From a virus (Duplodnaviria > Caudoviricetes), in the IMG/VR virus record IMGVR_UViG_3300029288_000113, positions 33,418-97,417 of that record: a stretch of 64,000 nucleotides of DNA. One strand, written 5' to 3'. Each line of letters starts with the position of its first letter. Within the stretch, counting starts at the first letter, position 1. Shown here piece after piece: positions 6,096 through 63,388 of this stretch. The translations under genes were made by a program, and so were the position numbers. Below the pieces are notes generated by a model, which worked only from the letters and a program-made list of their open reading frames with translations, made no database searches and was not told the DNA's origin.

Positions 6096-6541
6096 CAAAT
6101 TCCCTGGAAATGTTCGGTCAGCACCTGATCGCTGACGGGTATGGTGCCCCGGCTCATCTGCTTTCCGACATCGACCTAGTCCACAGGTTCCTTGATGAGA
6201 CCCCTGACCTGATAGGCATGACCAAGGTGATGCCTCCCTATGCATTCAGGTACAGGGGCAAGGTGCCTGAAGATTGGGGCATTTCAGGGTTTGTGATCAT
6301 AGCCGAGAGCCACATCGCCATCCACACGTTCCCCGACCGGGGATTCCTCAGCCTCGACATCTTCTCCTGCCGGGGCTTCGATGCCATCCTGGCACTGGCC
6401 TTTTGCAGGAGGCAGTTTGGGGTCTTTCGTATTGACCACAGGATCATAGACCGCGGCCTGGAGTTTCCCAGGGACCGTGGGATCGTCACCGGGATAATCA
6501 CCTCCCAAAGACAAGGAATCATGGGGGGCATCAATAAATGA
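6092..6541 (+). CDS. speD: S-adenosylmethionine decarboxylase proenzyme (class 1B, pyruvoyl-dependent)
   Basis: FGQHLIADGY, GISGFVIIAESHIAIHTFP (E-S autocleavage site) and DIFSC. Confidence 0.9.
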   Translation: MTNSLEMFGQHLIADGYGAPAHLLSDIDLVHRFLDETPDLIGMTKVMPPYAFRYRGKVPEDWGISGFVIIAESHIAIHTFPDRGFLSLDIFSCRGFDAILALAFCRRQFGVFRIDHRIIDRGLEFPRDRGIVTGIITSQRQGIMGGINK

Positions 6542-48666: not shown

Positions 48667-48683
48667 TATATTATAGCCTATTT
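48667..48683 (-). promoter_or_regulatory. Promoter motif AAATAGGCTATAATATA
   Basis: Repeated motif overlapping the dnaE stop. Confidence 0.6.
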
Positions 48684-51600
48684 CATCCAGTCCCCATATG
48701 AGGCAGCCACTGCACAATCATTCCAGATCGGGCATGGTCCACACTCCAGAAAATTATTGTTGTCCAGGCCGAACCTACCATTGTAGGGGCAGACCTGGAC
48801 CTGTGGTACCTGGCCGGTGCCTACATTCTGGCCACCGAGCCTGGCCAGCACCTGTGCGAAATTGGCAATGCCTGTGGAAAAGCTCTCCATGTTGCTTCGG
48901 TTATGGAGAACCGCACTTGGATGCGTGCACCAGCAGACCCAACACTGATACCTGTCTGACCACTCGGTTGTCCCGCTCAGGCCAGATATGCCCGATGACT
49001 TACCGGCAAAAAACTGGTTACCGACATTGCCGAATGCCAGTATCACGATCGGTTGTAGGCACTTGATCTCGGCATCGAGTATGGGCCTGCAGGCCTCGAT
49101 ATGTTTTTTGCCTGGTGTCTTGGTCCTGGATGGCCAGCACTTGCAGACATTGGTGACATGCAGCATCAGGGCGTCCAGACCATGTTTTCTCATCTCTGGC
49201 CATAGGATATCCGTTCCCGCCCTGCCTATGAATCCGATGCCCTGTTCGTCCTCGTCAGGACCAGGGGCCTCACCTGTGGCCATGATATTGTAGCGCCCGA
49301 ACGATGGGTTGACTGGGGCCCGGCACTCGTCCCGGAGCTGGCAGGCCCGACACTCGATCACCGGATGGACATGCCTGGTGATCCTGATCAGGTTTGCACT
49401 GATGTTGCAGCCCAGCAGGTCCGATTCCTGGGCCATGGCCAGGCCAGGGTCCATCTGGATGATCTTGGAAAACCTGCCTGCACTATCCTGGATATTGAAA
49501 TCGAAGTATTGCTGGGCCTGCTGGAGCTCATCGGTAGTCAATGCCCGGCCATCGGCTCCCACCTTGTGTAATATATCTTGGATGGCGTTTCCTGCACGGA
49601 CGGCGGTGGCAGGCTGTTGTGGGGTAGGATCTATATCTAAATCGGTGTCAAAAAAACCCTTTCTAATTGGCTTTGTTTGTTTCTTTGTCTTGCCACTTGG
49701 TTTCGAACTGTTTGTTCCTTTGACTAACTTCTCGGCTTGCGTTGGTCCTATGCCCTTGATCTCGGTGAATGGTGCATATAAGACTGGTTGTGACCTGTCG
49801 GGCATCCATTTCTTGGCCTCGGACAGGCCGATCCTGGGCAAGACCAGCCTGAGGCCCAGTCTCTTGGCCTCGGCAACATGGGAGGCTTTGTGGCGCTCAT
49901 CCCCATATGTGAGCAGGGCGGCCATGAATTCCTTGGGATGGTTGAACTTTAACCACAGGGTCCAATATCCAATGAGACTGTATTCAACTGCATGGGCCTT
50001 GTTGAAGAGATATGACCCACATGTTGACAGCTGTGCCCAAATGTGTTTTGCCTCCTGGGGTCCCAGGGTCTTCTGTGATAAGCAACCATCGACGAATTGT
50101 GGCTCGAATTTGAGAAACTCGGCCGCGCCCTTGCTCTTGCCCATGACCTTGCGGACCTTGTCACAGACGCCCCAGGATAGGCCGGCTAGCTCGTTCATGG
50201 TCCACATCACCTGTTCCTGGTAGATGATTAACCCCAGGGTCTCCCTGGTGTACTGCTCCATCCTGGGATGGATGTAGGTGATGGGTTTTTGGCCTCGGCG
50301 CCTGGCGATGAAGTCATCGGTGATGCCGGCCCCAAGGGGCCCTGGCCTTGACAGGGCATTGATCAGCACCAGGTCGTTGAATTCCCTGACCTGCAGGTCC
50401 TTGGCCAGCCTGATGAGCAGGTTGGTACCGAGCTGGAACCCACCAACGCAGTGCCCTTGGGCTGTCTCCTGGAACACTGTCTGGTCATCCAATGGTATCC
50501 TATCATAGTCGATGTCGATATCACAGTTCTGCTTGATCAGCTTCCTGGTATAGTTGAGTACAGAGAGGGTGGACAGGCCCAGGACATCAAACTTCATGAG
50601 GCCCATGTACTCGCCATCGCCCTTGTCCCAATTGGCAGTGATGACATTGTCCCTTACTGCCAAGTTGCACCGCTCACCGAGCCTGAGGTCATCGGCCGAT
50701 ATGCAGATGCCCGCTGCATGCTTGCCATAGCCCCGGGCCTGGCCCTCGAGTTCCATGGCTAGCTGGATGACATCGGGGTGCCTGAATCTGAACGCCTGGA
50801 GGTCCTGTGATTGTACCAGGGAGTCCTCGATGGTATGGCCGGCCCTGTTGTCACCGTCCGGCTTATCCTGAATGGACTTGGCGGCCCCATCAACCTCATG
50901 CTGGGGCACACTGAAGACCCTGGCCACATCACGGATTGCCGCCCGGCCCTTCATGGTCAGGAATGTGGTGATGCTAGCCACGTTATGATGGCCGTAGCAG
51001 GCCTCGATGTGGGCCCGGACTTCCTCCCTGCGCTCCTTCTCGAAATCCATGTCAATGTCAGGATAGTCGATGCGCTCCGGGCTGATGAACCTGGCGAAGA
51101 TCAGGCCATACCTGATGGGGTCCACGTCGGTCAGACCCATTAGGTAGGCCACTAGGGAGCCACCCACTGACCCACGTCCGGGGCCAGTCATGATGCCCTG
51201 CTCTCTGCACCATTGGACTATCTCCCAGATGATCAGGAAGTATCGCTGGAAACCTTGTTGGCAAATTAGTTCAAATTCTTCAGCAGTTCTGGTTATATAT
51301 TCCTGTGGAACCGTATTGCCAATCCTGATTTTCATTCCTTCCTGTATTATTTCAGTAAGCAGTTGCGTCTCGTCCCGATCCTCATATCCACTGGCCTTGG
51401 GCAATGATACATCCAGCTTCTTGATCTCAAAGCCGGAGCACATCCGGGCAATCTCCATGGTGTTGGACATGGCCTGCCGCCACTCATCCTCGGGCAGGAC
51501 CCCCTGGGTGACGAAGGCCTGGGCCATCTCCTGTTCCGACCTTAGGTGCAGGCCGTCGAACCCGAACCTCCACCTGTCCGGGTCGGTCCATTTGGCCCCC

Positions 51601-52238
51601 CTCTGGATGGCCAGCAGAACTTCCTGTGTTCGGGTCTGGTGGGGTAGGACGTAGTGGCAGTCGTTGGTGGCCACCAGGGGAATCCCGGTCTGCTGGGATA
51701 GCCTTAGCTTGGCCAGGTTCGTCTGTCTCTGGGCCTCAATGTTGTGGGGCATGACCTCAAGGCACACTGGGTTGGTCTTGGACAATTCCATGAGCAGCTC
51801 AAGACCATCGGGCATGAACACGAAGGACTGGATGCAGGCGGACATGAATACCAGGCCCTCGCGGTGGGTCAGCAAGAGATTCGGGTCGATCCTGGGCCTA
51901 TGATAGAACCCCTCAAGGTTGGCTTGGGACAGCATCTGAAGCAGGTTCTTGAATCCAATTTCATTCTGGATCAGGGCTGTGATGTGGTGCCGCTTTTCAC
52001 CCTGGGCTTTGACATATAGGTCAGGGACGATGTACAGCTCACAGCCCATGACTGGGGTGATGCCGTGCTTTTTACAGGACTTCTGGAATTTGATAAGGCC
52101 ATCGACATTGCCGTGATTGGTGATCGAGAGATGGGTTTGCCCCAGCTCCCTGGCCCTGGCACAGTACTGGTCAGCAGTACCGATCCCATCCAGGAGGCTG
52201 TGCTCATTGTGGACATGGAGATGGCAGAAGTTAGTCAC
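48678..52238 (-). CDS. dnaE: DNA polymerase III alpha (DnaE) fused to a family-4-like uracil-DNA glycosylase domain
   Basis: HLHVH..HSLLDG PHP domain, GPGRGS, PDIDMDF, KFDVLGL, FNKAHA; C-terminal CRACQL, GEAPG..ED..G..F.GRAG, KCWP and HPS. Confidence 0.9.
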   Translation of the reverse strand: MTNFCHLHVHNEHSLLDGIGTADQYCARARELGQTHLSITNHGNVDGLIKFQKSCKKHGITPVMGCELYIVPDLYVKAQGEKRHHITALIQNEIGFKNLLQMLSQANLEGFYHRPRIDPNLLLTHREGLVFMSACIQSFVFMPDGLELLMELSKTNPVCLEVMPHNIEAQRQTNLAKLRLSQQTGIPLVATNDCHYVLPHQTRTQEVLLAIQRGAKWTDPDRWRFGFDGLHLRSEQEMAQAFVTQGVLPEDEWRQAMSNTMEIARMCSGFEIKKLDVSLPKASGYEDRDETQLLTEIIQEGMKIRIGNTVPQEYITRTAEEFELICQQGFQRYFLIIWEIVQWCREQGIMTGPGRGSVGGSLVAYLMGLTDVDPIRYGLIFARFISPERIDYPDIDMDFEKERREEVRAHIEACYGHHNVASITTFLTMKGRAAIRDVARVFSVPQHEVDGAAKSIQDKPDGDNRAGHTIEDSLVQSQDLQAFRFRHPDVIQLAMELEGQARGYGKHAAGICISADDLRLGERCNLAVRDNVITANWDKGDGEYMGLMKFDVLGLSTLSVLNYTRKLIKQNCDIDIDYDRIPLDDQTVFQETAQGHCVGGFQLGTNLLIRLAKDLQVREFNDLVLINALSRPGPLGAGITDDFIARRRGQKPITYIHPRMEQYTRETLGLIIYQEQVMWTMNELAGLSWGVCDKVRKVMGKSKGAAEFLKFEPQFVDGCLSQKTLGPQEAKHIWAQLSTCGSYLFNKAHAVEYSLIGYWTLWLKFNHPKEFMAALLTYGDERHKASHVAEAKRLGLRLVLPRIGLSEAKKWMPDRSQPVLYAPFTEIKGIGPTQAEKLVKGTNSSKPSGKTKKQTKPIRKGFFDTDLDIDPTPQQPATAVRAGNAIQDILHKVGADGRALTTDELQQAQQYFDFNIQDSAGRFSKIIQMDPGLAMAQESDLLGCNISANLIRITRHVHPVIECRACQLRDECRAPVNPSFGRYNIMATGEAPGPDEDEQGIGFIGRAGTDILWPEMRKHGLDALMLHVTNVCKCWPSRTKTPGKKHIEACRPILDAEIKCLQPIVILAFGNVGNQFFAGKSSGISGLSGTTEWSDRYQCWVCWCTHPSAVLHNRSNMESFSTGIANFAQVLARLGGQNVGTGQVPQVQVCPYNGRFGLDNNNFLECGPCPIWNDCAVAASYGDWMK

Positions 52239-52392
52239 TTTTTATTTGTTCCCTATATAATGGCCATCCTTTTCCAACTCCCCAAGGTTCTATCATTATG
52301 TAATAGAAAGATAGTAATCTCTGAGCGACTTTGGTCATTAACCAGGCCTCGCGATTTTTGGTCAAAGTGTTAGCAGCGAAGTATATTTTCAT
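52231..52392 (-). CDS. TGT-fragment-like micro-protein A (53 aa, MKIYFAAN...QRLLSFYY...KGWPLYR)
   Basis: Read by hand. ATGA overlap with 52389-52574; paralogous to B, C and D. Confidence 0.7.
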   Translation of the reverse strand: MKIYFAANTLTKNREAWLMTKVAQRLLSFYYIMIEPWGVGKGWPLYREQIKSD

Positions 52393-52574
52393 TCATTATC
52401 AGGTGGCAGAAGTTCATTTGTCCTCTTGATCAAAGTAAAACTAATACCTGTACCCATATCTTCTTTTGGGCCAAGGGATAAATAGAAATAAGACAAAAGT
52501 CTAGTTGGACAAAATTTTAACCAAATTTTTTCCCTTTCTTCAAATCCTGCGTTTCCTGCAAAATAGATCCTCAT
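52389..52574 (-). CDS. TGT-fragment-like micro-protein B (61 aa, MRIYFAGN...TRLLSYFY)
   Basis: ATGA overlap with the beta-clamp stop; shared motif. Confidence 0.7.
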   Translation of the reverse strand: MRIYFAGNAGFEEREKIWLKFCPTRLLSYFYLSLGPKEDMGTGISFTLIKRTNELLPPDNE

Positions 52575-53584
52575 TCATTCACCAGGAGCAACAGGTGTCG
52601 GAAATTGTTCCCTTGGAATAGGCAGCAATTCTCTCCGATTAGGATTTCCTGACATTTAGTCAGAATATCGACTAAAAATAAGGGGTTTGCTACCATGACA
52701 ATTGGATGGCCCGAATATTGAATGGGTACTTCTTCTTCGATCCAGCCAATTTCTTTCTGACCCCGACAAACCAGTTTATTGTCTTGAAGGGTCAGTTTGA
52801 CTTTCAGGTCCAGTTCAGAATCACCCTCCACCATTATCTTGGTTCGTTCCAGGGTCTTTGTCAGGTCAGGCAGTTTGATACTTTGCCCCTGGATATCAAA
52901 GAATTTATCTGTGTTGATGAATTTGGCCATTTTACGTAAAACGCTAAAGATTAGACCGGATTTGTCGTCGGCAAAGTGAATCCAGGCTTTGTCCAAGGCC
53001 ATATGAGTAACTTGATATTTAATTAAGTGTACGGCTGCCTCCATGGGCAAGAGGAAATCGTATGGAATAAGTCCCGATAAAGTGAATTGAGTGATACGCC
53101 AATTGTCTGAACTGGTAGCTTTGGTTCCTTGGAAATGGATGCAGGTCAGGTGAGGCCGGGTTTGGTCCTTGGAGCAAGAGAAGAGACAAAGTCGAAGGGC
53201 CTCTTTGAATTGTTCTGGTAGATCCAGAAAATCATTTTCCGGTTGCAGCCACGGCCAAGCTCCCGGAATGGTATTCAGACCGGCCCGTACTTTGCCGGCC
53301 CTGACTTTGATCTCGGATTCGGCCTGCGTTAACTCGATTTCATCTGCCGAGATTTTGTCCAAAAGTTTGTATAAATCTTCGGCTCTGACTGCACCTTGAA
53401 TTCCGGTTTCAAATGGGATTTGGACTGAGATGTTGCCCCCAAAAGTGACAATTCGATCGCCATGAAAATTGAAGCAGACCCCGGTCTCAATGATGGCATT
53501 ATTTGACAATCCGGGCCGGAGTAGGCCCAGGGCATTGACCAATGCTTGGCGTTGGATTTTTTTTACCGATGCCTGTCGTACCAT
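52571..53584 (-). CDS. dnaN: DNA polymerase III beta sliding clamp
   Basis: 337 aa; RPHLTCIH and SSDNWRI (ATD..RL-like); NP.FL.D.L; next to dnaE, with dnaX present. Confidence 0.75.
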   Translation of the reverse strand: MVRQASVKKIQRQALVNALGLLRPGLSNNAIIETGVCFNFHGDRIVTFGGNISVQIPFETGIQGAVRAEDLYKLLDKISADEIELTQAESEIKVRAGKVRAGLNTIPGAWPWLQPENDFLDLPEQFKEALRLCLFSCSKDQTRPHLTCIHFQGTKATSSDNWRITQFTLSGLIPYDFLLPMEAAVHLIKYQVTHMALDKAWIHFADDKSGLIFSVLRKMAKFINTDKFFDIQGQSIKLPDLTKTLERTKIMVEGDSELDLKVKLTLQDNKLVCRGQKEIGWIEEEVPIQYSGHPIVMVANPLFLVDILTKCQEILIGENCCLFQGNNFRHLLLLVNE

Positions 53585-53711
53585 AGCGATATAACCATCC
53601 TTTGTCTTGATCTCGAATAAAAAAGAAAGATAACAAGCGACTAGTGGCCCGGACTTTGGTCAAGGTCATTCCCTGATTATCCTCGGCCCAAGTGGCTAAG
53701 TAGACTCTCAA
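53499..53711 (-). CDS. TGT-fragment-like micro-protein C (70 aa, MRVYLAT...SRLLSFFF...KGWLYR)
   Basis: TTG start overlapping the DpdA-like stop (TTGA), with GGAGG upstream; shared motif. Confidence 0.65.
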   Translation of the reverse strand: MRVYLATWAEDNQGMTLTKVRATSRLLSFFFIRDQDKGWLYRYGTTGIGKKNPTPSIGQCPGPTPARIVK

Positions 53712-54607
53712 AACCCAAACCCTCCAGCTTGCTTGGGTTGGGATTTTAATTTGAAGGCCCAGGGCCACTCAGGCATAGCTTTTTCCAAATCGAGAAAATA
53801 GATGATGTTAATCTCGTCTCGTTGTATATAGTCATTACAAAGGCCTGGCTCAATAATCAACTCGACTTCCCGGGTACCATCAGTCCTGGCCGGCCCAAGC
53901 CATCGTTCTCCATGCTTGGGTTGGTAATTTTTGGATTCAAGCCTGAATTCTGACTTACCAATCTGGTAGCCTTTAAGATCCAAGTAATTGGTTATTATAG
54001 TCTGTTCCGGAGGGGAGAAGGTCTTGAAGTGTTTGCCAGCGTCCATTTTTTTAGGGGAGCGATCAGATACCGAAACTTTCCAGGAATCGATCAGATAGTC
54101 GTATTTGCCGTTTCGAAATCTGGGTACGTAGATGGAGCCCATACGCCCGGTCATTACCCAGGAAGTAGAGTCGACACTGTACCAAGGGTAGCGAAGCATG
54201 AGCTTGAGAGAAGTCAGGCCAAATCCATGGACTTTGATTTTAGGTGTGCCTTGTTGATCGCAAATATATTGACTGAAGATCATGTCAAGCCAGGGTATTA
54301 AGTCGGTGGTCGAGATAGGTACCATCCCTCCCAGGGCCAAGTAATCATAATTTTCTAGGTAGATTTTTAAGTAATTGATGTCTTCCCCATAATGAAAACA
54401 GGGAAGGGGGTTAAGGCCAGCAGCTTCCATAATTTTCTGATTGGTCAGGGTGCCAGCCGGGTCACCAATTACATCGAGGTTGGCGTAAACAGCAATGACA
54501 TTTTGATTTTCTTTGATAAAAGTGATATACTCCTCAATGTTAATGGTTACCCCTTTGGTGAAGGCGGAGAAAGCCCCGGAGTCCAGAAAAAGATTAACTT
54601 TGTTCAT
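53708..54607 (-). CDS. DpdA/TGT-like 7-deazaguanine DNA transglycosylase (core barrel)
   Basis: LFLDSGAFS, NLDVIG, PCFH, LALGG, VHGFG and SVDSTSW; clustered with folE, queC, queD and queE. Confidence 0.75.
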   Translation of the reverse strand: MNKVNLFLDSGAFSAFTKGVTINIEEYITFIKENQNVIAVYANLDVIGDPAGTLTNQKIMEAAGLNPLPCFHYGEDINYLKIYLENYDYLALGGMVPISTTDLIPWLDMIFSQYICDQQGTPKIKVHGFGLTSLKLMLRYPWYSVDSTSWVMTGRMGSIYVPRFRNGKYDYLIDSWKVSVSDRSPKKMDAGKHFKTFSPPEQTIITNYLDLKGYQIGKSEFRLESKNYQPKHGERWLGPARTDGTREVELIIEPGLCNDYIQRDEINIIYFLDLEKAMPEWPWAFKLKSQPKQAGGFGF

Positions 54608-54619
54608 AATTAGCCTTTA

Positions 54620-54757
54620 TTATTTGTAACAGTTTTTTGGTCCAAATTGGGTTTGCCAATCGTAATAAGAAAGTAATCTTTTGCGAATTAACAAGTTAAA
54701 ACCGTCTTTACCTCGGGTTATATGACCATTAGCAAGGCTGGCAAAATAAATTTTTAT
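54620..54757 (-). CDS. TGT-fragment-like micro-protein D (45 aa, IKIYFAS...KRLLSYY), ATA start or degenerate
   Basis: Read by hand. ATAA overlap with the folE stop; in frame with the DpdA-like ATG but separated by TAA TAA. Confidence 0.55.
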   Translation of the reverse strand: MKIYFASLANGHITRGKDGFNLLIRKRLLSYYDWQTQFGPKNCYK

Positions 54758-55677
54758 TTTATCAGACTCATTAATTCAGCCCGGGCGGCCCGGCCAGAAT
54801 CATTGTCTTCCAGAAAACGTCCACGAAGGCAACTGGCACCCATAATGGAATTTTGTTTCCCGACGCCTCGGCAACGCATACAAAAATGGGCGCCTTCGAT
54901 AATGCAAGCGGCCCCCAATGGCTGCAGGTGCTTCATGAGAGATTCGGTTACTGACTTAGCGATCCGCTCCTGGGTAGTTAGCCGACGGGCAAAGATATCT
55001 ACCAGTCTGGCCAGCTTAGAGGCTCCGATCACTTTTTCACCATTGGCAATATAGGCCACATGAGCTTTACCAAAAAATGGCTGCCAATGATGTTCGCAAT
55101 TTGAATAGAATTCAATGTCTTTCATCCAGACCAGTTCGTTATACCCATCTTCGTCAAAGACCTTGAAGATGTCTTCCGGTTTCTGTTGATAGCCGGCAAA
55201 AATTTCTGACCAGGACCGAACAATGCGGGCAGGAGTCTCGATCAACCCTGTACGGGTTGGATCTTCGCCAATGTATTGGAGCATACGGACAATGTTGTCG
55301 TGGATCGACCTTTCTTCATTGGCTTCCCACCAGAAGGTGATCCAGTCGGAAACCCGATGAACATAGAAGGTCGGCCGCAGATGCTGCGGGGTGTGGTCTT
55401 TGATAAATAAGGTGGCGACGTCGTAGCCGGGAAACCGGGAAATAGTGGCTCCGGAGTCCACCAGGTCGTCCACTATAAGCAGAGATTCTTTTGGCCAGGA
55501 ATCGAGATGTCGCCCCTCTACAAGAGGCAGGCTTAAAAGATGGGACAGCTGCATAGCCAAGGCCGTACCGCCTTGAGGAATGCCATGAATTCCCCGGTAT
55601 GGCTTTTTGCACAAGATGATGTTTTTAGCCAGGAGCCGGCAATCGGTTTGAAATTCGTCTTGGCCGTAAAAAATCAT
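54754..55677 (-). CDS. folE: Purine phosphoribosyltransferase-like domain fused to GTP cyclohydrolase I
   Basis: N-terminal GIPQGG and LLIVDDLVDSGAT (PRPP loop); C-terminal GLIETPAR, CEHH..PF, GASKLAR, QER and HFCM..RG. Confidence 0.9.
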   Translation of the reverse strand: MIFYGQDEFQTDCRLLAKNIILCKKPYRGIHGIPQGGTALAMQLSHLLSLPLVEGRHLDSWPKESLLIVDDLVDSGATISRFPGYDVATLFIKDHTPQHLRPTFYVHRVSDWITFWWEANEERSIHDNIVRMLQYIGEDPTRTGLIETPARIVRSWSEIFAGYQQKPEDIFKVFDEDGYNELVWMKDIEFYSNCEHHWQPFFGKAHVAYIANGEKVIGASKLARLVDIFARRLTTQERIAKSVTESLMKHLQPLGAACIIEGAHFCMRCRGVGKQNSIMGASCLRGRFLEDNDSGRAARAELMSLIK

Positions 55678-56384
55678 TCGTTGCCCTCCACGTATTGTAC
55701 GGGATCTTTCTGGCCAATCTTAGCGAAGGCCTCAAGTCGTTCCTGGCAGGAACCGCAACGGCCGCAGGCCAAAATGCGGACATAAGGAGAACCTTTCACT
55801 CCTTTGCCATCAAGAATTGCTTGCGGGTCATAGCAAGTCCAAGTCAGTTGATAAGGCACCCCCAAAGGTAGGCCGATTTTGAGAATGTCCATCTTGGTCT
55901 TATTGAGAAAAGGAACCCAGAGCTTGACCGGGGTGTAATGAAACAACCGGAGCACCGAATCCATGGCATCGACATATCTAGGGCGACAATCTGGGTAGAT
56001 TGCATGGTCCCCAGCGTGGGCAGCATAGGCCACCGCGTCAAAACCCATGGAGGCAGCCCAGGCTGCAGCAATACTGAGTAAGATAGTATTTCTGCCGGGC
56101 ACCACCGTCTGTTTCATGGACTCGTCTTCATAATGGCCGTGCGGCACCGGAATGTCGGAGGTCAAGGCCGAACCTTGTAGCAGGTGGTTGATGTTGGTAA
56201 TATCCAGGATTTCATGATGGACGGTAAAATGCCGGGCGACTTGTTTGGCCGATTCCAGCTCTCGCTTGTGACGCTGGGCATAATCAATCGACAGGGCCAT
56301 CGCCTCTTGGTATTGCCGTCGAGCTAGCCCCAGCAGTGTTGCTGAGTCCATGCCACCACTGAGAAGAATAACACATTTACTCAT
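55674..56384 (-). CDS. queC: 7-cyano-7-deazaguanine synthase
   Basis: LSGGMDS, YAQRH, VPGRN, YPDCR, TWTCY and CGRCGSC.ER. Confidence 0.95.
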   Translation of the reverse strand: MSKCVILLSGGMDSATLLGLARRQYQEAMALSIDYAQRHKRELESAKQVARHFTVHHEILDITNINHLLQGSALTSDIPVPHGHYEDESMKQTVVPGRNTILLSIAAAWAASMGFDAVAYAAHAGDHAIYPDCRPRYVDAMDSVLRLFHYTPVKLWVPFLNKTKMDILKIGLPLGVPYQLTWTCYDPQAILDGKGVKGSPYVRILACGRCGSCQERLEAFAKIGQKDPVQYVEGNE

Positions 56385-57411: not shown

Positions 57412-58080
57412 TCATGCCAGAGATAAAAATTTATGGATCTGGCAATTCAGGGTCACCTGCCATAGGCGGTCGGCCAGAATCCACTGGGCCAGTGTGTTGC
57501 CAGGAAGGCTCTCGTGTACCGGGCTGAATGCGATCCTGGCCCTAGTGCCCATGTTGAGGACAATTTCTTTGGCCATGTCATAATCCAGCCGGTTGCTGAT
57601 GACAAACTTGATCCAGTCCCAGGGGCATAGTGCCGAGAAGTCGACTGCAGGCAGCAAGACGGGCAGCATGTGCAGCTTGTAGTCGACCACGAGGCAGACG
57701 CCCGGATTCGGCCTGGTCAGGTTCCTGAATCTGTTCAATGCGATCGTGCCGTTGGTTTCGATGCTGACCTTGAAGTTATGCGGGAACAGGCGATTGAGCA
57801 ATTGATGAATCTCATCTTGTTGGAGTAGGGGTTCGCCCCCCGTGATGGTTATCTTGGGATATGGAGGCGGGTTGAATCCTATGGGATTGATTTTGGCCCA
57901 AATGGAAGCCATCACCTGGTCCACTGTCAGGTTGTCATCTTTTTGTTCCTGGGCATCTGGGGCGTCACAGTAGGGGCATCCCAGGTTGCATCCCTGCATC
58001 CTGATGAATACGGACGGCGTGCCTTGCCCCTGGGCGTTGACCTCACCATCGATGCTCGTGAAGATTGAATGAACTTTCAT
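57412..58080 (-). CDS. queE: 7-carboxy-7-deazaguanine synthase (radical SAM)
   Basis: IF.SIDGE, FIR..GCNLGCPYCD, TGGEPLLQ, IETNGT and QIHK. Confidence 0.9.
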   Translation of the reverse strand: MKVHSIFTSIDGEVNAQGQGTPSVFIRMQGCNLGCPYCDAPDAQEQKDDNLTVDQVMASIWAKINPIGFNPPPYPKITITGGEPLLQQDEIHQLLNRLFPHNFKVSIETNGTIALNRFRNLTRPNPGVCLVVDYKLHMLPVLLPAVDFSALCPWDWIKFVISNRLDYDMAKEIVLNMGTRARIAFSPVHESLPGNTLAQWILADRLWQVTLNCQIHKFLSLA

Positions 58081-58559
58081 TTGGTCTCCCTGGCCGGCGG
58101 CCTGAACAGCCTGGTCGGATGTTCGACCCCGTTTCGTAACCGGATCAGGTTCAGGTATTCCCGCATGGGGTCGGAGCCCAGCATGGCCTGAAGTGCTATG
58201 GCCTCGATCTCCGTGACCTCGGCATTGAGCTGGATCACGGCATGCAGGCGGTCATAACCAGTGTATTCACCATCAGGAGGAAAATCCACTACTTTGGCAT
58301 TCTTGGATGGCCAGGATACTTGTTGACTGTTGACAATGACATCCATTTGGGCCGCCATTTCCCAGTACCGCATCACAGCCATGGGACTGTCCAAGTCCAG
58401 GAGCAACTGATCGGGTTTCCTGACCACGATCTCGAACCCGTCCATTTGGGCCTTCAGGGCAGCCGCCTCATATCCTGCTGGGGTGAGGTCCTCCTGTTGG
58501 TAATTCGGATCATTGGCCTGCTCGATGATCTCCTTGCATTGTATCATTTCAGCCTCCAT
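58077..58559 (-). CDS. Hypothetical DxD/GSDP-domain protein
   Basis: LLLDLD, WPSK, H and Q..LGSDP.RE; paralog of the C-terminus of 46797-47585. Confidence 0.6.
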   Translation of the reverse strand: MEAEMIQCKEIIEQANDPNYQQEDLTPAGYEAAALKAQMDGFEIVVRKPDQLLLDLDSPMAVMRYWEMAAQMDVIVNSQQVSWPSKNAKVVDFPPDGEYTGYDRLHAVIQLNAEVTEIEAIALQAMLGSDPMREYLNLIRLRNGVEHPTRLFRPPARETK

Positions 58560-58945
58560 TCCACACTCGAGCCTTCGGTTTCCCAGAGCTGGAGGTAGGT
58601 GAGCTCAGTCAATGGGTTCAGGTTCCAAACCTTGTTGGCCAGTCGATCCTTGATCCATAGGATCATGTTTTCTGCCGTGGGCATATCCTTGGGAAACTTG
58701 GGCAGTTCATCCATTTGGATATTATTGAGGTGCCTGTGGTCCAGTAGGTCGATGACCTCGGTCTTGACCAGCTTTTTCAGATTTCCGAAATCGCCCACCA
58801 TGCCCATGTCATTGAGGTTATTGTCGTTACACGAGACTCCCACCAGCAGTTTGTACGAATGCCCATGATGGTTGGCACAGGCCCCGGGATATCCTGGCAG
58901 ATAGTGAGAAGCCTCGAAGGTAAATCTTTTTATAATGGTAAGCAT
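58544..58945 (-). CDS. queD: 6-carboxytetrahydropterin synthase
   Basis: FEASH.L, CANHHGHSY, LDHRHLN, PTAEN and LWET. Confidence 0.95.
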   Translation of the reverse strand: MLTIIKRFTFEASHYLPGYPGACANHHGHSYKLLVGVSCNDNNLNDMGMVGDFGNLKKLVKTEVIDLLDHRHLNNIQMDELPKFPKDMPTAENMILWIKDRLANKVWNLNPLTELTYLQLWETEGSSVEWRLK

Positions 58946-58977: not shown

Positions 58978-60511
58978 AGAATCTACTATCGAGAATTGCC
59001 TGCCCCAGGCTGATGGCCTGGAGGACGGTCACATATTCACCTTCGATAACATCCTCATCACGTCCCACTCCCACGCTGATCAGGGCCCGCTTGGCCAGCT
59101 CGTCCTCTGGTCCTTGGTCGATCTTGATGGTCATGTCCAGGTGCCCCAGGATGCCGGCATGCTCAGCCACGTCCGAATCCCGCAGTCTCTTGCGCTCCTG
59201 GGCCTCCTTGCCGCCAGCCTGGAATGGAGCCAGCACCAGGCAATGAAGGTCCTGTGCCAGGCCGCAGATACGCTTGGCCAGTTCATCAACCCTGTGTCGG
59301 AAGTCACCTCGACCAGCCACCAGGTCCGACATGCCCGATGGCTGGTCCAACACAAGCACGTCGGGGTTGAACCCCTCGAGGTGCCTCCACACCTGGAGCA
59401 CGGCCCGGGCATCGTCGAATCCTGCCCCGAACTTGGGCCATGACTTGACCTTGAACCTGGCACCCAGGACAGACCCAGCCACCGCCTCGGCCTTGCGCCA
59501 GGCCGTTCTCCAATCCAGGACATCGATCTTTCTCTCGATGAACCAGGTCTCAAGACGATAGTACGGGCACCGGCCCTTGAGGTCGCATGGCCTGTATCCG
59601 GGTGGCTGCATGGCCGGCATGGGCTTATTGCCGTTGCTGTCGAGGAGCTGGACCGGGCATTGCCTTGACGGGCTCTGGCACTCACCGGTCTGGTTCAAGG
59701 CACAGTCCCATGTGGGGATGAACAGGCGGCCGTCCCTGGGTGGCCTCAGGGGCATGGCACACAGGCCCTGGGCCCAGCGGCGGCGTAGCCTGCGTTCACC
59801 CAGTTCGAAGTCAAGATGGGCCACATTCAAGCCTGAATAGACTGACTGTTGCTCGATGTGCTGGCATGTGTAGGACTTGGCGCCCTTGAACTTGCCCACA
59901 ATGCCCACCGCCCATTCCCTCTCCAGTGTCCCCAGGAGCCTGCCAAATGCCCCGGGCAATTGCAACAGGCTATCCTTGTCCTGGAATGCCTCCCGGGTGC
60001 CCTCAAGATCGGTCATGGGCTCAAACCCCATGCCGACCTGGGCTGCCGGGGCGATGAAGTCCGCCACCGCCCCATGGGCCTGATCCAGCGTGCCGGCCCT
60101 CAGGTGCACATCGAGGTCGTCACGCAGTATAGTCAGGGCCCGCTCACGAAAGTACCTGATGGCCTCGTCGATGGCCAGTTGCTCATTGTATTGCTCATCG
60201 CGCTCGTATTCCTGACTGATGCCGGCCAGAAACCGGTCGATGAGCTGGGCCAGGTCCGGGTTGAGGCCATTCCGTCTCTGTGCCTCGAACAAGACCTGGA
60301 TGTTGCGGCCTGGTGCACAATTATATCTCTGCTGGTATTCCAGGCACCAACCTGCGACAGTGGCCGCGAAGTCGGCCACCAGGTACCGGGGCTTGTATGC
60401 CAGGCCAATGATCCTGAGTGCCTGATCGGACACGATCATGGCCGTCAGTATGTGGCGTTCCACATGGGCGGTGGATGGCTCCTGGGTCCAGGTGATAGGG
60501 ATGCCGGTCAT
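58976..60511 (-). CDS. DnaB-like replicative helicase with Cys-rich insertion
   Basis: ER.IL..MI, GKFKGAKS Walker A variant, DFE, PDVLVLD, LA....C.V..P.Q and DVAE. Confidence 0.7.
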   Translation of the reverse strand: MTGIPITWTQEPSTAHVERHILTAMIVSDQALRIIGLAYKPRYLVADFAATVAGWCLEYQQRYNCAPGRNIQVLFEAQRRNGLNPDLAQLIDRFLAGISQEYERDEQYNEQLAIDEAIRYFRERALTILRDDLDVHLRAGTLDQAHGAVADFIAPAAQVGMGFEPMTDLEGTREAFQDKDSLLQLPGAFGRLLGTLEREWAVGIVGKFKGAKSYTCQHIEQQSVYSGLNVAHLDFELGERRLRRRWAQGLCAMPLRPPRDGRLFIPTWDCALNQTGECQSPSRQCPVQLLDSNGNKPMPAMQPPGYRPCDLKGRCPYYRLETWFIERKIDVLDWRTAWRKAEAVAGSVLGARFKVKSWPKFGAGFDDARAVLQVWRHLEGFNPDVLVLDQPSGMSDLVAGRGDFRHRVDELAKRICGLAQDLHCLVLAPFQAGGKEAQERKRLRDSDVAEHAGILGHLDMTIKIDQGPEDELAKRALISVGVGRDEDVIEGEYVTVLQAISLGQAILDSRF

Positions 60512-61224
60512 TAGTTTATCTCATACCCCACAAATCTTCTCCCCCACTCACTGTACAGGTTTTCTTTACCGGGTCCGCAGAATGGGTCCAATATGGTATC
60601 CTCGATTATGGAGAACATTCGCATAAGCCTGTATGGCACCTCTTGGGGCCAGCCGGAGTCGCCACGGGCCCCCTTCTTGCCCTGGATGTTCCAGACTTGT
60701 TGGAACCACAGGTCCCGCTCGGCCTTGGTGAAGGCTGATTGCCTGCGCCTTTCCTTCTCCTCTGGACTGAATTGCCTCAGTCTCTTGCCCTTCCGGAATA
60801 GCCCGATGTACTCATGGTCCTGGGACACATAGGCATTGACTGGCAGGAAACCTGATCCCAGGAAGGCATTGGGCCGGTTGCTGATTTTCTTCCAGAATAT
60901 GGGGATGAGCGGAGTAAAATCATGATGGAACATCATCTTGAGTGCCAGGGCGGCGTAATTGGGATAGCAGCAGAAATTCTTGTCCAGGGTCCTGGTGGCA
61001 TCCCCAATGTTGATGCAGGCAATGCCCCCAGGGATCATGACCCTTTCCACCTCGTCGAGCACCATGTCCAACAACGTCCATTGCTTATCCCAGCCATCGG
61101 CCCCTTGCCTTGAGAAACACTCATCCCACTTGGCTATCATGGGATACGGCGGGCTAGTGATCATGCAATGTACAGACCCATCGGCCAGTTCGTGCATGTC
61201 GTTGGATGAATGATGATGGATCAT
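60511..61224 (-). CDS. DNA N4-cytosine/N6-adenine methyltransferase (beta class)
   Basis: TSPPY motif IV before DPFCGPG motif I; VW.I and GYEIN. Confidence 0.8.
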   Translation of the reverse strand: MIHHHSSNDMHELADGSVHCMITSPPYPMIAKWDECFSRQGADGWDKQWTLLDMVLDEVERVMIPGGIACINIGDATRTLDKNFCCYPNYAALALKMMFHHDFTPLIPIFWKKISNRPNAFLGSGFLPVNAYVSQDHEYIGLFRKGKRLRQFSPEEKERRRQSAFTKAERDLWFQQVWNIQGKKGARGDSGWPQEVPYRLMRMFSIIEDTILDPFCGPGKENLYSEWGRRFVGYEIN

Positions 61225-62594: not shown

Positions 62595-62756
62595 TTAAAT
62601 CCTACTAAATATCCAATATCCCAGATTAAATCCAAGGGAAATAAGGAAAAAAGCAAGTGAAGCTATTGGCCCATAAATAATCCCGGCTGCAAAAGCTATT
62701 GGAATAAGTATTACACCTATTCCTAAGCATATTTTAGCAATAGTAAAGAAATTCAT
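62595..62756 (-). CDS. Small AT-rich 2-TM membrane protein
   Basis: Entirely hydrophobic; ATGA overlap. Confidence 0.5.
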   Translation of the reverse strand: MNFFTIAKICLGIGVILIPIAFAAGIIYGPIASLAFFLISLGFNLGYWIFSRI

Positions 62757-63388
62757 TCTGTCCTCCCCAACCTGCGCCTGCTTGTGTCCGGGTCCAGCAT
62801 GGCCTTGGCCAATTCGATGATTTTCGGCCTGATGACCAGTCTGGACACCATTGGGAATTTGTCTTTTGGCCAATCGAACGGGTCATCATAGTCAAGTTCA
62901 TAATAGATTTGCCTGACGCCGGCCTGACACAGTAGCTTCATGCATACGGCGCACGGCCTGGTGGTACAGTATAGGGTGACCCCATGTACCGCTATACCCA
63001 TCCTGGCGGCCTGGGCAATGGCATTGGCTTCGGCGTGGCTGGATCGGCAGGCCCGGTCCTTCTGGCCATCCGGGGTATTGGTGGCCCGACGGTGGCAGTA
63101 GGGAATAAATCCGGTACCATCACAGATGGAACAAGGGGCTGTGCCCAAAAAATCACCATCAAATGATTTTGTATTTGGGGTTACCTTACTCCCATAGCAC
63201 TCTGGGCAATAGGTTTTCTGTCCCAGGCAGTGCTCCTGTCCGGGCAAGGCCCCGTTATATCCGGTGGCCAGGACCCGATTGTCACGCACCAACACGGCTC
63301 CCTGGGGCCGGGAATTGCAGGTGGAGCGGCTGGCTGCCAGCTTGGCCTGCAACATGAAGTATTCATCCCAAGTTGGCCGGATGGTCAT
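62753..63388 (-). CDS. dCMP deaminase (ComEB-like) with inserted Zn finger
   Basis: RPTWDEYFM, RSTC, TGYNG, HAEANA and PCAVC. Confidence 0.9.
   Translation of the reverse strand: MTIRPTWDEYFMLQAKLAASRSTCNSRPQGAVLVRDNRVLATGYNGALPGQEHCLGQKTYCPECYGSKVTPNTKSFDGDFLGTAPCSICDGTGFIPYCHRRATNTPDGQKDRACRSSHAEANAIAQAARMGIAVHGVTLYCTTRPCAVCMKLLCQAGVRQIYYELDYDDPFDWPKDKFPMVSRLVIRPKIIELAKAMLDPDTSRRRLGRTE

What the first reader, a model, noticed from the sequence alone, without database searches (positions are those of the whole stretch)
52231..54757. Split DpdA/TGT-like DNA-modifying enzyme with four interchangeable micro-subunit genes
Seen: four small paralogous - strand ORFs flank the DpdA-like and beta-clamp genes. 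A (52231-52392) MKIYFAANTLTKNREAWLMTKVAQRLLSFYY..KGWPLYR; B (52389-52574) MRIYFAGNAGFEEREKIWLKFCPTRLLSYFY; C (53499-53711) MRVYLATWAEDNQGMTLTKVRATSRLLSFFF..KGWLYR; D (54620-54757) IKIYFASLANG...IRKRLLSYY. Each start overlaps the upstream stop, and A and D are missing from the ORF track. The DpdA-like ORF starts at LFLDSGAFS and shows only six strand-like motifs (FLDSG, NLD, PCFH, ALGG, HGFG, SVDS). Knowledge: TGT/DpdA enzymes are (beta/alpha)8 barrels. From memory, not from a search, full-length phage homologs carry an xYFAG...RLxS segment before FLDSG. Inference: the missing beta1-alpha1-beta2 unit is supplied in trans by one of four variant peptides, whose variable linker could switch target-sequence or base specificity. 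That would be a modular, combinatorial anti-restriction DNA modification system.
Basis: partly seen in the sequence, partly recalled or inferred. Interest (0 to 1): 0.9.

Follow-up and report, generated by a model that had tools for sequence, protein, structure and literature searches.

The report
Split DpdA enzyme with micro-subunit genes
A phage enzyme that swaps guanine in DNA for a 7-deazaguanine is encoded here without the first quarter of its barrel fold, and four tiny neighbouring genes each re-encode that missing quarter, an arrangement that is widespread in uncultured phages and that I did not find in the DpdA papers I searched.

Summary
Four small minus-strand ORFs (A, B, C, D) flank a 299-aa DpdA-like gene and the clamp gene.

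- **Homology:** a profile built only from the N-termini of longer homologues ranks A-D as the top four of 1,766 six-frame segments.
- **Truncated core:** the core model aligns to TGT from residue 94 and to bacterial DpdA from residue 87. A long-form homologue aligns from residues 40 and 4. So the core lacks beta1-alpha1-beta2(-alpha2), and the micro-ORFs encode that unit.
- **Docking:** in a predicted complex, B's two strands sit beside core beta8 and beta3 and close the barrel (score 0.89, best control 0.00). This may partly reflect memory of the TGT fold.
- **Spread:** 77 related viral loci with a recognised core carry 1-8 copies, always on the dpdA strand. 97% have a canonical start codon. 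dN/dS is about 0.1.
- **Old paralogues:** 95% of copies match another phage best.
- **D:** it has no canonical start and may be defunct.

A split two-piece enzyme is well supported in silico. That the copies are interchangeable specificity subunits is plausible but untested. Free copies also accompany complete DpdAs, which a simple split does not explain. This scan noted the same architecture before on other DNA.

The parts
53708..54607 (-). DpdA-like catalytic core, 299 aa. It holds barrel strands beta3-beta8 plus a C-terminal beta/alpha subdomain, and lacks beta1-alpha1-beta2-alpha2.
   Evidence: phrog_887 'queuine tRNA-ribosyltransferase' at E 1.4e-54. About 45% identity to Queuovirinae DpdA1 over residues 2-226. 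AF2 model at pLDDT 90.6 with six barrel strands. VIA-align places core residue 1 at 7UI4 residue 87 (Z 12.7) and Z. mobilis TGT residue 94. D9, D45 and D146 are invariant in 77 homologues.
52389..52574 (-). Micro-ORF B, 61 aa: a free beta1-alpha1-beta2(-alpha2) module. Its ATG overlaps the clamp stop as ATGA.
   Evidence: Independent module profile E 3e-10. In the predicted complex with the core the score is 0.89 against a best control of 0.00. B residues 2-5 pair with core 143-146 (beta8) and B residues 25-29 pair with core 5-8 (beta3).
52231..52392 (-). Micro-ORF A, 53 aa: a free module. Its ATG overlaps B's stop as ATGA, and its own stop overlaps the GTG of the PolIII alpha gene.
   Evidence: Module profile E 1e-8. 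It keeps A6, R14, E15, L18, R25, L26 and S28, the conserved positions of the family. Its tail has the KGW motif seen in fused forms.
53499..53711 (-). Micro-ORF C: a free module directly after the core. Its TTG start overlaps the core's TGA, with GGAGG 8 nt upstream. The module proper is about 53565-53711; the tail overlaps the clamp gene.
   Evidence: Module profile E 0.014. Clear orthologues sit at the same place in relatives: L003:6226, L005:6637, L004:6101. Its best match is L027 at 63% identity. A module starts right after the dpdA stop, about +870 nt from the FLDSG motif, in many loci.
54620..54757 (-). Module D: a start-less copy directly upstream of the core and in the core's frame. 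ATA stands where ATG is expected, and TAA TAA separates it from the core. It is probably the cut-off remnant of a formerly fused N-terminus; whether it is expressed is uncertain.
   Evidence: Module profile E 7e-8. Sequence reading. The fused homologue P0006 (76% identical core) has its module at this position.
52571..53584 (-). Sliding-clamp (DNA pol III beta-like) gene inside the array. It is translationally coupled to C upstream and B downstream.
   Evidence: PF02768 E 4e-6 and phrog_947 E 1.9e-30. The dpdA-clamp-polymerase order is the same in Queuovirinae.
54754..55677 (-). FolE (GTP cyclohydrolase I), with an N-terminal extension that shows only a weak PRTase-like trace. First enzyme of preQ0 synthesis. 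Its stop overlaps D's first codon.
   Evidence: PF01227 E 1.2e-59. PF00156 only E 0.0065, 16.2 bits against a 26.3-bit cut-off.
55674..56384 (-). QueC (7-cyano-7-deazaguanine synthase).
   Evidence: PF06508 E 2e-62.
57412..58080 (-). QueE-like radical SAM enzyme.
   Evidence: PF04055 and PF13353. The same gene order occurs in relatives.
58544..58945 (-). QueD (PTPS family).
   Evidence: PF01242 E 1e-29.

Best explanation
The phage encodes a two-piece DNA guanine transglycosylase.

**The pieces.** The 299-aa gene product carries the catalytic aspartates and barrel strands beta3-beta8, but not the first quarter of the TGT-type (beta/alpha)8 barrel. That quarter (beta1, helix alpha1, beta2 and a short alpha2) is made separately as a micro-protein of about 50-60 aa. 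It inserts between beta8 and beta3 of the core and closes the barrel.

**The copies here.** B, and by conservation of the same contact residues A and C, are such micro-subunits. They are translated by coupling to the preceding gene within one operon: folE, (D), dpdA core, C, clamp, B, A, PolIII alpha. D is the cut-off remnant of a formerly fused N-terminus and is probably weakly expressed or silent.

**The reaction.** With FolE, QueD, QueE and QueC from the same operon making preQ0, the assembled enzyme would exchange G for preQ0 in phage DNA.

**What is shown in silico:**
- homology of the micro-ORFs to the DpdA N-terminus;
- the truncated core;
- barrel-closing docking of B;
- conservation, purifying selection and retained start codons across related phages.

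**What is inferred:**
- that the pieces assemble in cells;
- that A and C also bind the core;
- that the product is dPreQ0.

**Why several old, distinct copies are kept is open.** My leading idea is alternative subunits. Their variable beta1/alpha1 and beta2/alpha2 loops would lie on the DNA-facing side and change the sequence context of the modified G.
For: **1. Homology.** A profile built only from fused N-termini finds B, A, D and C as the top four of 1,766 segments.

**2. Truncated core.** The core model (pLDDT 90.6) has six barrel strands. Its residue 1 aligns to 7UI4 residue 87, Z. mobilis TGT 94, human QTRT1 97 and arcTGT 87. Residue 1 of the long-form homologue aligns to 4, 40, 43 and 34.

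**3. Docking.** Core plus B scores 0.89, 0.88 and 0.89 against a best control of 0.00. That mark was reached by 58 of 80 solved complexes and 2 of 110 mismatched pairs, roughly, because my own alignments were used. Partner pLDDT is at least 82 and the runs share at least 96% of contacts. B residues 2-5 touch core 143-146 and B residues 25-29 touch core 5-8.

**4. Spread.** 77 related loci with a recognised core and at least one module hit carry 1-8 copies. None lies on the opposite strand. All 39 of these loci without a fused module have a free one. Three further short-form loci have no hit.

**5. Start codons.** Module position 1 is ATG in 207, GTG in 20 and TTG in 2 of 236 instances.

**6. 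Selection.** Five orthologous micro-ORF pairs between L003 and L004 have dN/dS 0.06-0.16. The core has 0.10 and the clamp 0.12.

**7. Old paralogues.** 209 of 219 copies match a copy in another phage best.

**8. Conservation pattern.** The strand motifs are conserved while positions 8-13, 16-24 and 33-45 vary.

**9. Family size.** 795 cluster representatives match the module profile. Most of the best 150 are free-standing proteins of 45-89 aa.

**10. Genomic context.** There is one core in the genome and a full preQ0 gene set beside it.
Against: - No experiment, transcript or peptide evidence exists for this phage.
- The complex pass may come from the model's memory of TGT and TIM barrels, as pieces of a split gene tend to pass that way. 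Only B was docked.
- In the fused homologue the module region was modelled at low confidence (pLDDT 52-62).
- Free modules also accompany complete fused DpdAs in 33 of 38 loci.
- Natural proteins exist with two or three tandem modules before one core: P0090, P0190, P0160, P0180. Only one module can fill the barrel slot, so simple complementation does not explain the multiplicity.
- D has no canonical start.
- dN/dS could not be measured for the window's own copies because synonymous sites are saturated.
Confidence: 0.7

Rival explanations
1. One structural subunit plus others with a different job. Only one micro-protein is the cognate barrel-closing subunit, most likely C, which is translationally coupled to the core. 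The other copies have diverged to another role, such as regulating the core, tethering it to the clamp or polymerase genes they sit between, or acting as assembly factors. They would not be alternative specificity subunits.
For: A module starts right after the dpdA stop in many loci, and C has its own GGAGG. A and B sit between the clamp and polymerase genes, as in L003-L005. Paralogue types are old and hold their positions. Free copies persist beside complete DpdAs.
Against: B, which is not the core-adjacent copy, docked into the barrel slot with a score of 0.89 against 0.00 for controls. All copies keep the same strand motifs and near-invariant A6, R25, L26 and S28, which make sense mainly inside the barrel. 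A beta-alpha-beta unit of about 50 aa is unlikely to fold alone (inference).
Confidence: 0.15
2. A cassette library for recombination. The copies serve mainly as DNA cassettes that are swapped by recombination into the position in front of the core, replacing the enzyme's N-terminus. Frequent fusion and fission would be its trace.
For: D is an in-frame, cut-off former N-terminus. Fused and split forms are about equally common among close relatives. A, B and D have far lower G+C (0.32-0.37) than the genome (0.55). Each copy's best relative is in another phage, often one with a distant core.
Against: 97% of copies keep their own start codon at position 1. The window's copies have coupled starts. 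Orthologous copies are under purifying selection as strong as that on the core. These features are expected of expressed genes, not silent cassettes. No flanking repeats or recombinase were seen, though I did not search for them systematically.
Confidence: 0.07
3. The core is self-sufficient, and the micro-proteins act on their own. For example, the core closes or pairs its six-stranded sheet by dimerising, and the micro-proteins assemble with each other (four two-strand units could make an eight-strand barrel) or target a host protein.
For: The core alone is modelled with high confidence. Tandem two- and three-module proteins exist. Free copies occur beside complete enzymes.
Against: Structure predictors model partial barrels confidently, so says little. 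Of 42 short-form loci, 39 have a free module. The docking is specific: controls scored 0.00. Modules are found only next to dpdA in the loci scanned and only there in this genome.
Confidence: 0.05
4. Decaying relics. The copies are leftovers of gene fission and tandem duplication and have no function.
For: D has lost its start and is cut off by two stops. L004 holds a partial copy at 6101.
Against: dN/dS is 0.06-0.16. Start codons are retained in 97% of copies. There are 795 diverse cluster representatives. Paralogue types are conserved across phages.
Confidence: 0.03

Closest known systems
Phage DpdA1 (Enterobacteria phage 9g, CAjan and other Queuovirinae; PaMx25 tgt)
   Same: About 45% identity over the barrel part of the core, with E 1e-55 to 1e-60. 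The gene order preQ0 genes, dpdA, clamp, DNA polymerase is the same. The catalytic motifs FLDSG, NLD-type and S(V/C)DS are shared. These enzymes insert preQ0 or its derivatives at short motifs such as GA and GGC (PMC6884629, PMC7544227).
   Different: DpdA1 is one chain with the beta1-alpha1-beta2 unit fused (MNVFMAAVYT...ILESYHYV). No free module copies were found in the six cultured-phage loci I scanned. The window's C-terminal 130 aa has no match in 50,697 phage records.
Bacterial DpdA of the Dpd system (Salmonella Montevideo, PDB 7UI4)
   Same: It is the best structural match: Z 17.3 for the long form and 12.7 for the core. It has three invariant active-site aspartates. Its beta1/alpha1 loop (Ins1) helps form the DNA-binding surface, and its beta2/alpha2 loop (Ins2) flanks the active site (PMC10164549).
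   Different: It is a single chain of 413 residues with a structural zinc site (CXCX2CX22H) and a large Ins8, and it needs DpdB and ATP. The window core has only three cysteines and no such motif, and its first quarter is encoded separately.
tRNA-guanine transglycosylases (bacterial TGT, archaeal ArcTGT, eukaryotic QTRT1/QTRT2)
   Same: Same fold, and by inference the same double-displacement base-exchange chemistry. Z is 16-17 for the long-form model.
   Different: They act on tRNA, carry an N-terminal beta-sheet lid and a zinc subdomain, and each chain is a complete barrel. The eukaryotic heterodimer pairs two whole barrels, not pieces of one.
Specificity subunits of type I restriction-modification systems (HsdS) and their variable cassettes. 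This is an analogy from general knowledge, not homology.
   Same: If the leading idea is right, one catalytic core would be combined with alternative small specificity-determining subunits encoded as a variable set of genes.
   Different: HsdS is a separate DNA-binding protein, not a piece of the catalytic fold. Nothing here shows a difference in specificity between the copies.
Laboratory fragment complementation of (beta/alpha)8 barrels (general knowledge of TIM-barrel folding studies)
   Same: Barrels cut between beta-alpha units can reassemble from two fragments, which makes a natural (beta-alpha)2 plus (beta-alpha)6 enzyme physically plausible.
   Different: Those are engineered cuts. Here the split is natural, recurrent and combined with multiple variant copies of the small piece.

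Membership tests
DpdA / TGT-fold guanine transglycosylase | TGT-type (beta/alpha)8 barrel | tested here: met
   Met only for core plus module. The core alone gives six strands and aligns to 7UI4 residues 87-410 (Z 12.7, rmsd 3.4, 221 aligned) and Z. mobilis TGT 94-365. The fused homologue aligns from 7UI4 residue 4 (Z 17.3, rmsd 3.8, 271 aligned). B supplies the two missing strands in the predicted complex.
DpdA / TGT-fold guanine transglycosylase | Three invariant active-site aspartates (bacterial DpdA Asp95, Asp130, Asp256; PMC10164549) | tested here: met
   D9 (FLDSG), D45 (NLD) and D146 (SVDS) are invariant in 77 homologues. Core residue 1 aligns to 7UI4 residue 87, so D9 falls on Asp95. 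The other two are assigned by motif order, which is inference.
DpdA / TGT-fold guanine transglycosylase | Structural zinc site CXCX2CX22H | tested here: not met
   The core has three cysteines (PCFH, YICD, GLCND) and no CxCxxC motif. This sets it apart from bacterial DpdA and the TGTs. I did not check whether characterised phage DpdA1 proteins have the site.
DpdA / TGT-fold guanine transglycosylase | Linkage to 7-deazaguanine (preQ0) synthesis genes | tested here: met
   FolE, QueC, QueE-like and QueD lie in the same minus-strand gene run. Relatives have the same set.
DpdA / TGT-fold guanine transglycosylase | Guanine-to-7-deazaguanine exchange in DNA | not testable with these tools
   This needs LC-MS of DNA from cells expressing the core with and without the micro-proteins.
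Phage DpdA1 subfamily (9g / CAjan type) | Significant sequence similarity to 9g-type DpdA | tested here: met
   44-49% identity over query residues 2-226 to Queuovirinae and other phage DpdAs, with E down to 3e-60. phrog_887 at E 1.4e-54.
Phage DpdA1 subfamily (9g / CAjan type) | Single polypeptide with the N-terminal beta1-alpha1-beta2 unit fused | tested here: not met
   The window ORF has 8 residues between the upstream in-frame stop and the FLDSG motif. D is separated from the core by TAA TAA.
Phage DpdA1 subfamily (9g / CAjan type) | Shared C-terminal region | tested here: not met
   Matches to cultured-phage DpdAs stop near residue 226-239. The last 130 aa find nothing in 50,697 phage records.
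Unnamed micro-protein family (free DpdA N-terminal modules) | 45-75 aa. Motifs M-K-I-Y-[LF]-A-G and R-L-L-S-[YF] separated by 14-25 residues. Next to dpdA on the same strand. | tested here: met
   A, B, C and D match the independent profile and keep A6, R25, L26 and S28. There are 795 cluster representatives, with no Pfam family or name. D fails on one point: it has no canonical start codon.

The most novel reading that the evidence does not exclude
A large group of uncultured phages uses a two-piece TIM-barrel DNA transglycosylase. Its first quarter comes from a library of old, distinct micro-proteins. Each micro-subunit gives the same catalytic core a different DNA sequence preference through its variable beta1/alpha1 and beta2/alpha2 loops. 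One enzyme core would then hypermodify guanines in many contexts and blunt many restriction systems. This would be a combinatorial specificity system built by swapping a piece of the catalytic fold itself.
Probability: 0.3. Interest if true: 0.9.

Novelty: new variant of a known kind. Interest (0 to 1): 0.8.

Why it matters
DpdA enzymes are the known route by which phages put 7-deazaguanines into DNA to escape restriction. What sets their sequence preference and their level of modification is still open.

A natural enzyme whose barrel is completed by a separately encoded unit of about 50 aa would be a rare natural case of fragment complementation in a (beta/alpha)8 barrel. It also bears on how such barrels evolved from smaller units.

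If the variant copies do change target preference, that would be a new way to diversify an enzyme's specificity. It would also give a compact, swappable handle for engineering site-selective DNA base exchange.

In practice, the micro-ORFs are often missed by gene callers and have no family name. Short DpdA genes in metagenomes may therefore be wrongly taken for complete or for broken enzymes.

Tried and rejected
- **Pfam:** nothing for the core or for any of the four peptides, even at E up to 1.
- **PHROGs:** nothing meaningful for the peptides.
- **PDB by sequence:** a profile search with the DpdA alignment gave only chance hits with E above 0.4. The fold had to be shown through models.
- **dN/dS for the window's own copies:** synonymous sites are saturated against the nearest relatives. 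Selection was therefore measured on the closer pair L003/L004.
- **Expression:** no RNA holder is listed for this stretch. The only full holder is a landfill metagenome that may be the source sample. I did not lay reads.
- **Cultured phages:** six GenBank phage loci have fused DpdA1-type N-termini and no free module copies.
- **Rhizobium phage RHph_Y55:** its DpdA looked split by an HNH gene. In fact beta1 (IRLFNAGIYT) lies in frame just upstream of the annotated start, so this is an annotation issue, not a split.
- **C-terminal domain:** a tblastn of the core's last 130 aa against the phage collection found nothing.
- **A second core** that the extra modules might serve: there is none in the genome.
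- **ATA as a genuine start codon:** the other ATA cases (L031, L036) have a GTG six codons upstream, so they do not support it.
- **P0263:** a 409-aa protein with seven 'stretches' is an unrelated repeat protein.
- **Internal start in fused forms:** 29 of 33 keep an ATG 3-14 residues before FLDSG. SD-like sequences are no commoner there than in short forms, so the test is inconclusive.
- **Literature:** one search failed on a term format. Searches of the DpdA papers for 'split', 'truncated' and 'N-terminal' found no description of this arrangement.

Full report
**What is there.**

On the minus strand the window carries one coupled gene run: folE (54754-55677), D (54620-54757), a 299-aa DpdA-like gene (53708-54607), C (53499-53711), a sliding-clamp gene (52571-53584), B (52389-52574), A (52231-52392) and a PolIII alpha gene (48678-52238). 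QueC, a QueE-like radical SAM enzyme and QueD lie just upstream, so the preQ0 pathway is complete.

The window is part of a 97,417-bp virus record rated complete. It comes from a landfill metagenome.

**Starts and stops of the four micro-ORFs.**

- A and B begin with an ATG that overlaps the preceding stop as ATGA.
- C begins with a TTG that overlaps the DpdA stop. A GGAGG lies 8 nt upstream, inside the last DpdA codons.
- D has no ATG, GTG or TTG. ATA stands at the position where the others have ATG, and it overlaps folE's TAA.
- D is in the same frame as the core and is separated from it only by TAA TAA plus three codons. D therefore looks like the cut-off N-terminus of a once longer DpdA.

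**The four copies are real homologues of the DpdA N-terminus.**

Among the 120 closest homologues of the core, about 70% start a few residues before LFLDSGAFS, as the window protein does. About 30% are 40-60 residues longer and begin MKIYLAG...RL[LH]SY[YF]H. One (P0090) has two such units in tandem.

I built a profile from 28 of these fused N-termini, with no window sequence in it. It ranked B (3e-10), A (1e-8), D (7e-8) and C (0.014) as the best four of 1,766 six-frame segments of the window. It found no further copy in the rest of the genome.

Characterised Queuovirinae DpdA1 proteins also have a fused N-terminal unit of a diverged form, MNVFMAAVYT...HILESYHYV. They share the dpdA-clamp-polymerase gene order.

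**The unit is beta1-alpha1-beta2(-alpha2) of the barrel, and the core lacks it.**

| Model | pLDDT | 7UI4 (bacterial DpdA) | Z. mobilis TGT | Human QTRT1 | ArcTGT |
|---|---|---|---|---|---|
| Fused homologue P0006 | 82 overall, 52-62 in the module | from residue 4 (Z 17.3) | from 40 | from 43 | from 34 |
| Window core alone | 90.6 | from residue 87 (Z 12.7) | from 94 | from 97 | from 87 |

The residues at which the fused form begins to align lie, from my knowledge of these structures, at the start of barrel strand beta1. The core model has six barrel strands, and its alignment begins just before the strand that carries the catalytic FLDSG aspartate.

The difference of about 54 residues matches the module length. 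D9, D45 and D146 of the core are invariant. With core residue 1 at 7UI4 residue 87, D9 falls on Asp95, the general acid/base of bacterial DpdA (PMC10164549).

**Docking.**

The core and peptide B, each with its own alignment, gave scores of 0.89, 0.88 and 0.89 against a best control of 0.00.

- This mark was reached by 58 of 80 solved complexes and 2 of 110 mismatched pairs. The counts hold only roughly, because my own alignments were used.
- The partner's pLDDT was at least 82, and the three runs shared at least 96% of contacts.
- B residues 2-5 (RIYF) lie against core 143-146 (YSVD, the last barrel strand).
- B residues 25-29 (RLLSY) lie against core 5-8 (LFLD, the first core strand).

This geometry closes an eight-strand barrel. 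Because TGT barrels are solved structures, the pass may partly reflect memory of the fold. It shows that the pieces fit, not that they bind in cells.

**The arrangement is widespread and selected.**

I scanned 80 IMG/VR loci encoding this DpdA subfamily, together with the loci fetched earlier and the window.

- 77 loci had a recognisable core and at least one module hit. Each carries 1-8 module copies.
- Every copy is on the dpdA strand, in tandem runs of about 150 nt just upstream of dpdA, just after its stop, and beyond the clamp gene.
- 38 loci have a fused module. 39 have none, and all 39 have at least one free copy.
- Three further short-form loci gave no hit. One contig ends 320 nt after dpdA.
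- Of 236 instances aligned from profile position 1, 207 start with ATG, 20 with GTG and 2 with TTG.
- Five orthologous micro-ORF pairs between two related phages have dN/dS of 0.06-0.16. Their DpdA core has 0.10 and their clamp 0.12.
- In 209 of 219 cases a copy's closest relative lies in another phage, not in the same locus. Upstream or downstream position is mostly kept. The paralogues are therefore old, distinct types rather than recent duplicates.
- The module profile finds 795 cluster representatives among 1.84 billion proteins. Most of the best 150 are free-standing proteins of 45-89 aa.
- None has a name or a Pfam family.

**What varies.**

The two strand motifs are nearly fixed: A6 100%, R25 96%, L26 99%, S28 97%. 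Positions 8-13, 16-24 and 33-45 are highly variable, and the linker ranges from 14 to 25 residues.

By barrel topology, the segments that follow beta1 and beta2 lie on the catalytic face. In bacterial DpdA the corresponding insertions are implicated in DNA binding (Ins1) and possibly in sequence recognition (Ins2) (PMC10164549). Characterised phage DpdAs do have short target motifs, such as GA and GGC in CAjan (PMC7544227).

From general knowledge of TGT, the base pocket is formed by later strands that belong to the core. Switching of base specificity therefore seems less likely.

**What does not fit a simple split gene.**

- Free copies accompany complete, fused DpdAs in 33 of 38 loci.
- Some proteins carry two or three modules before one core: P0090, P0190, P0160 and P0180.
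- Most fused forms (29 of 33) keep a Met where short forms start. A free core might therefore also be made from them, but the test was inconclusive.
- A, B and D are much poorer in G+C (0.32-0.37) than the genome (0.55). Their best relatives sit in phages with distant cores. This hints at exchange of copies between phages.

**Verdict.**

The structural reading, a naturally split DpdA completed in trans by a micro-protein, is well supported by independent in-silico lines. I hold it at about 0.7.

The claim that the four copies are interchangeable specificity subunits is open, at about 0.3. D may be defunct.

I found no description of this arrangement in the DpdA papers I could search. Earlier notes of this scan describe the same architecture in other genomes. 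Those are unchecked AI notes and not independent evidence.

Noticed in passing
53708-53735 (-), last residues of the DpdA core; also P0002-P0120: The DpdA subfamily ends in a conserved G-F-[GD]-[LIF] motif after a basic, low-confidence linker. Queuovirinae DpdA1 proteins end in ..QELF or ..MELF. This looks like a sliding-clamp-binding tail, and dpdA sits beside the clamp gene in all these phages. In the window, the GG codons of this tail also form the GGAGG upstream of micro-ORF C.
   Followed up: partly
54745-54775 (-), folE/D junction: D's reading frame is the folE frame shifted by -1 at the sequence A AAA TAA. A -1 slip of the lysine tRNA at the folE stop would continue into D and give a FolE-module fusion. 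This is pure speculation and was not tested. The simpler reading is that D lost its start by ATGA changing to ATAA.
   Followed up: no
52231-52574 and 54620-54757 against the whole window: Micro-ORFs A, B and D have G+C of 0.37, 0.34 and 0.32. The DpdA core, C and the clamp have about 0.45-0.46, and the window has 0.55. The cassette looks compositionally foreign.
   Followed up: partly
48678-52238 (-): The PolIII alpha-type polymerase (1186 aa) has a C-terminal cysteine-rich, UDG-like part; relatives carry Pfam PF03167. The orthologue in L003 also contains an intein.
   Followed up: no
54754-55677 (-): FolE has an N-terminal extension of about 110 aa with a weak phosphoribosyltransferase-like trace (PF00156, E 0.0065). 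The extension is conserved in relatives, whose proteins are 306-307 aa.
   Followed up: no
L031:6216 and 6395; L036:1321 and 1500: Two tandem module copies have ATA at the usual Met position, preceded by GGGAGGAGGGAGGACA. A GTG six codons upstream may be the real start.
   Followed up: partly
P0160 (354 aa), P0180 (405 aa), P0190 (345 aa), P0090 (388 aa): These natural DpdA-type proteins have two or three module copies in tandem before a single core, and each copy begins with its own Met. What the surplus copies do is unexplained.
   Followed up: no
L088:2842-2922 (Rhizobium phage RHph_Y55, MN988500.1): The annotated DpdA (EVB71_059) starts too late. The beta1 motif IRLFNAGIYT lies in frame upstream of the annotated start, just after an HNH endonuclease gene.
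   Followed up: yes
60511-61224 (-) and 62753-63388 (-): An N6/N4 DNA methyltransferase and a dCMP deaminase lie in the same gene run. The phage may therefore combine several DNA or nucleotide modifications.
   Followed up: no
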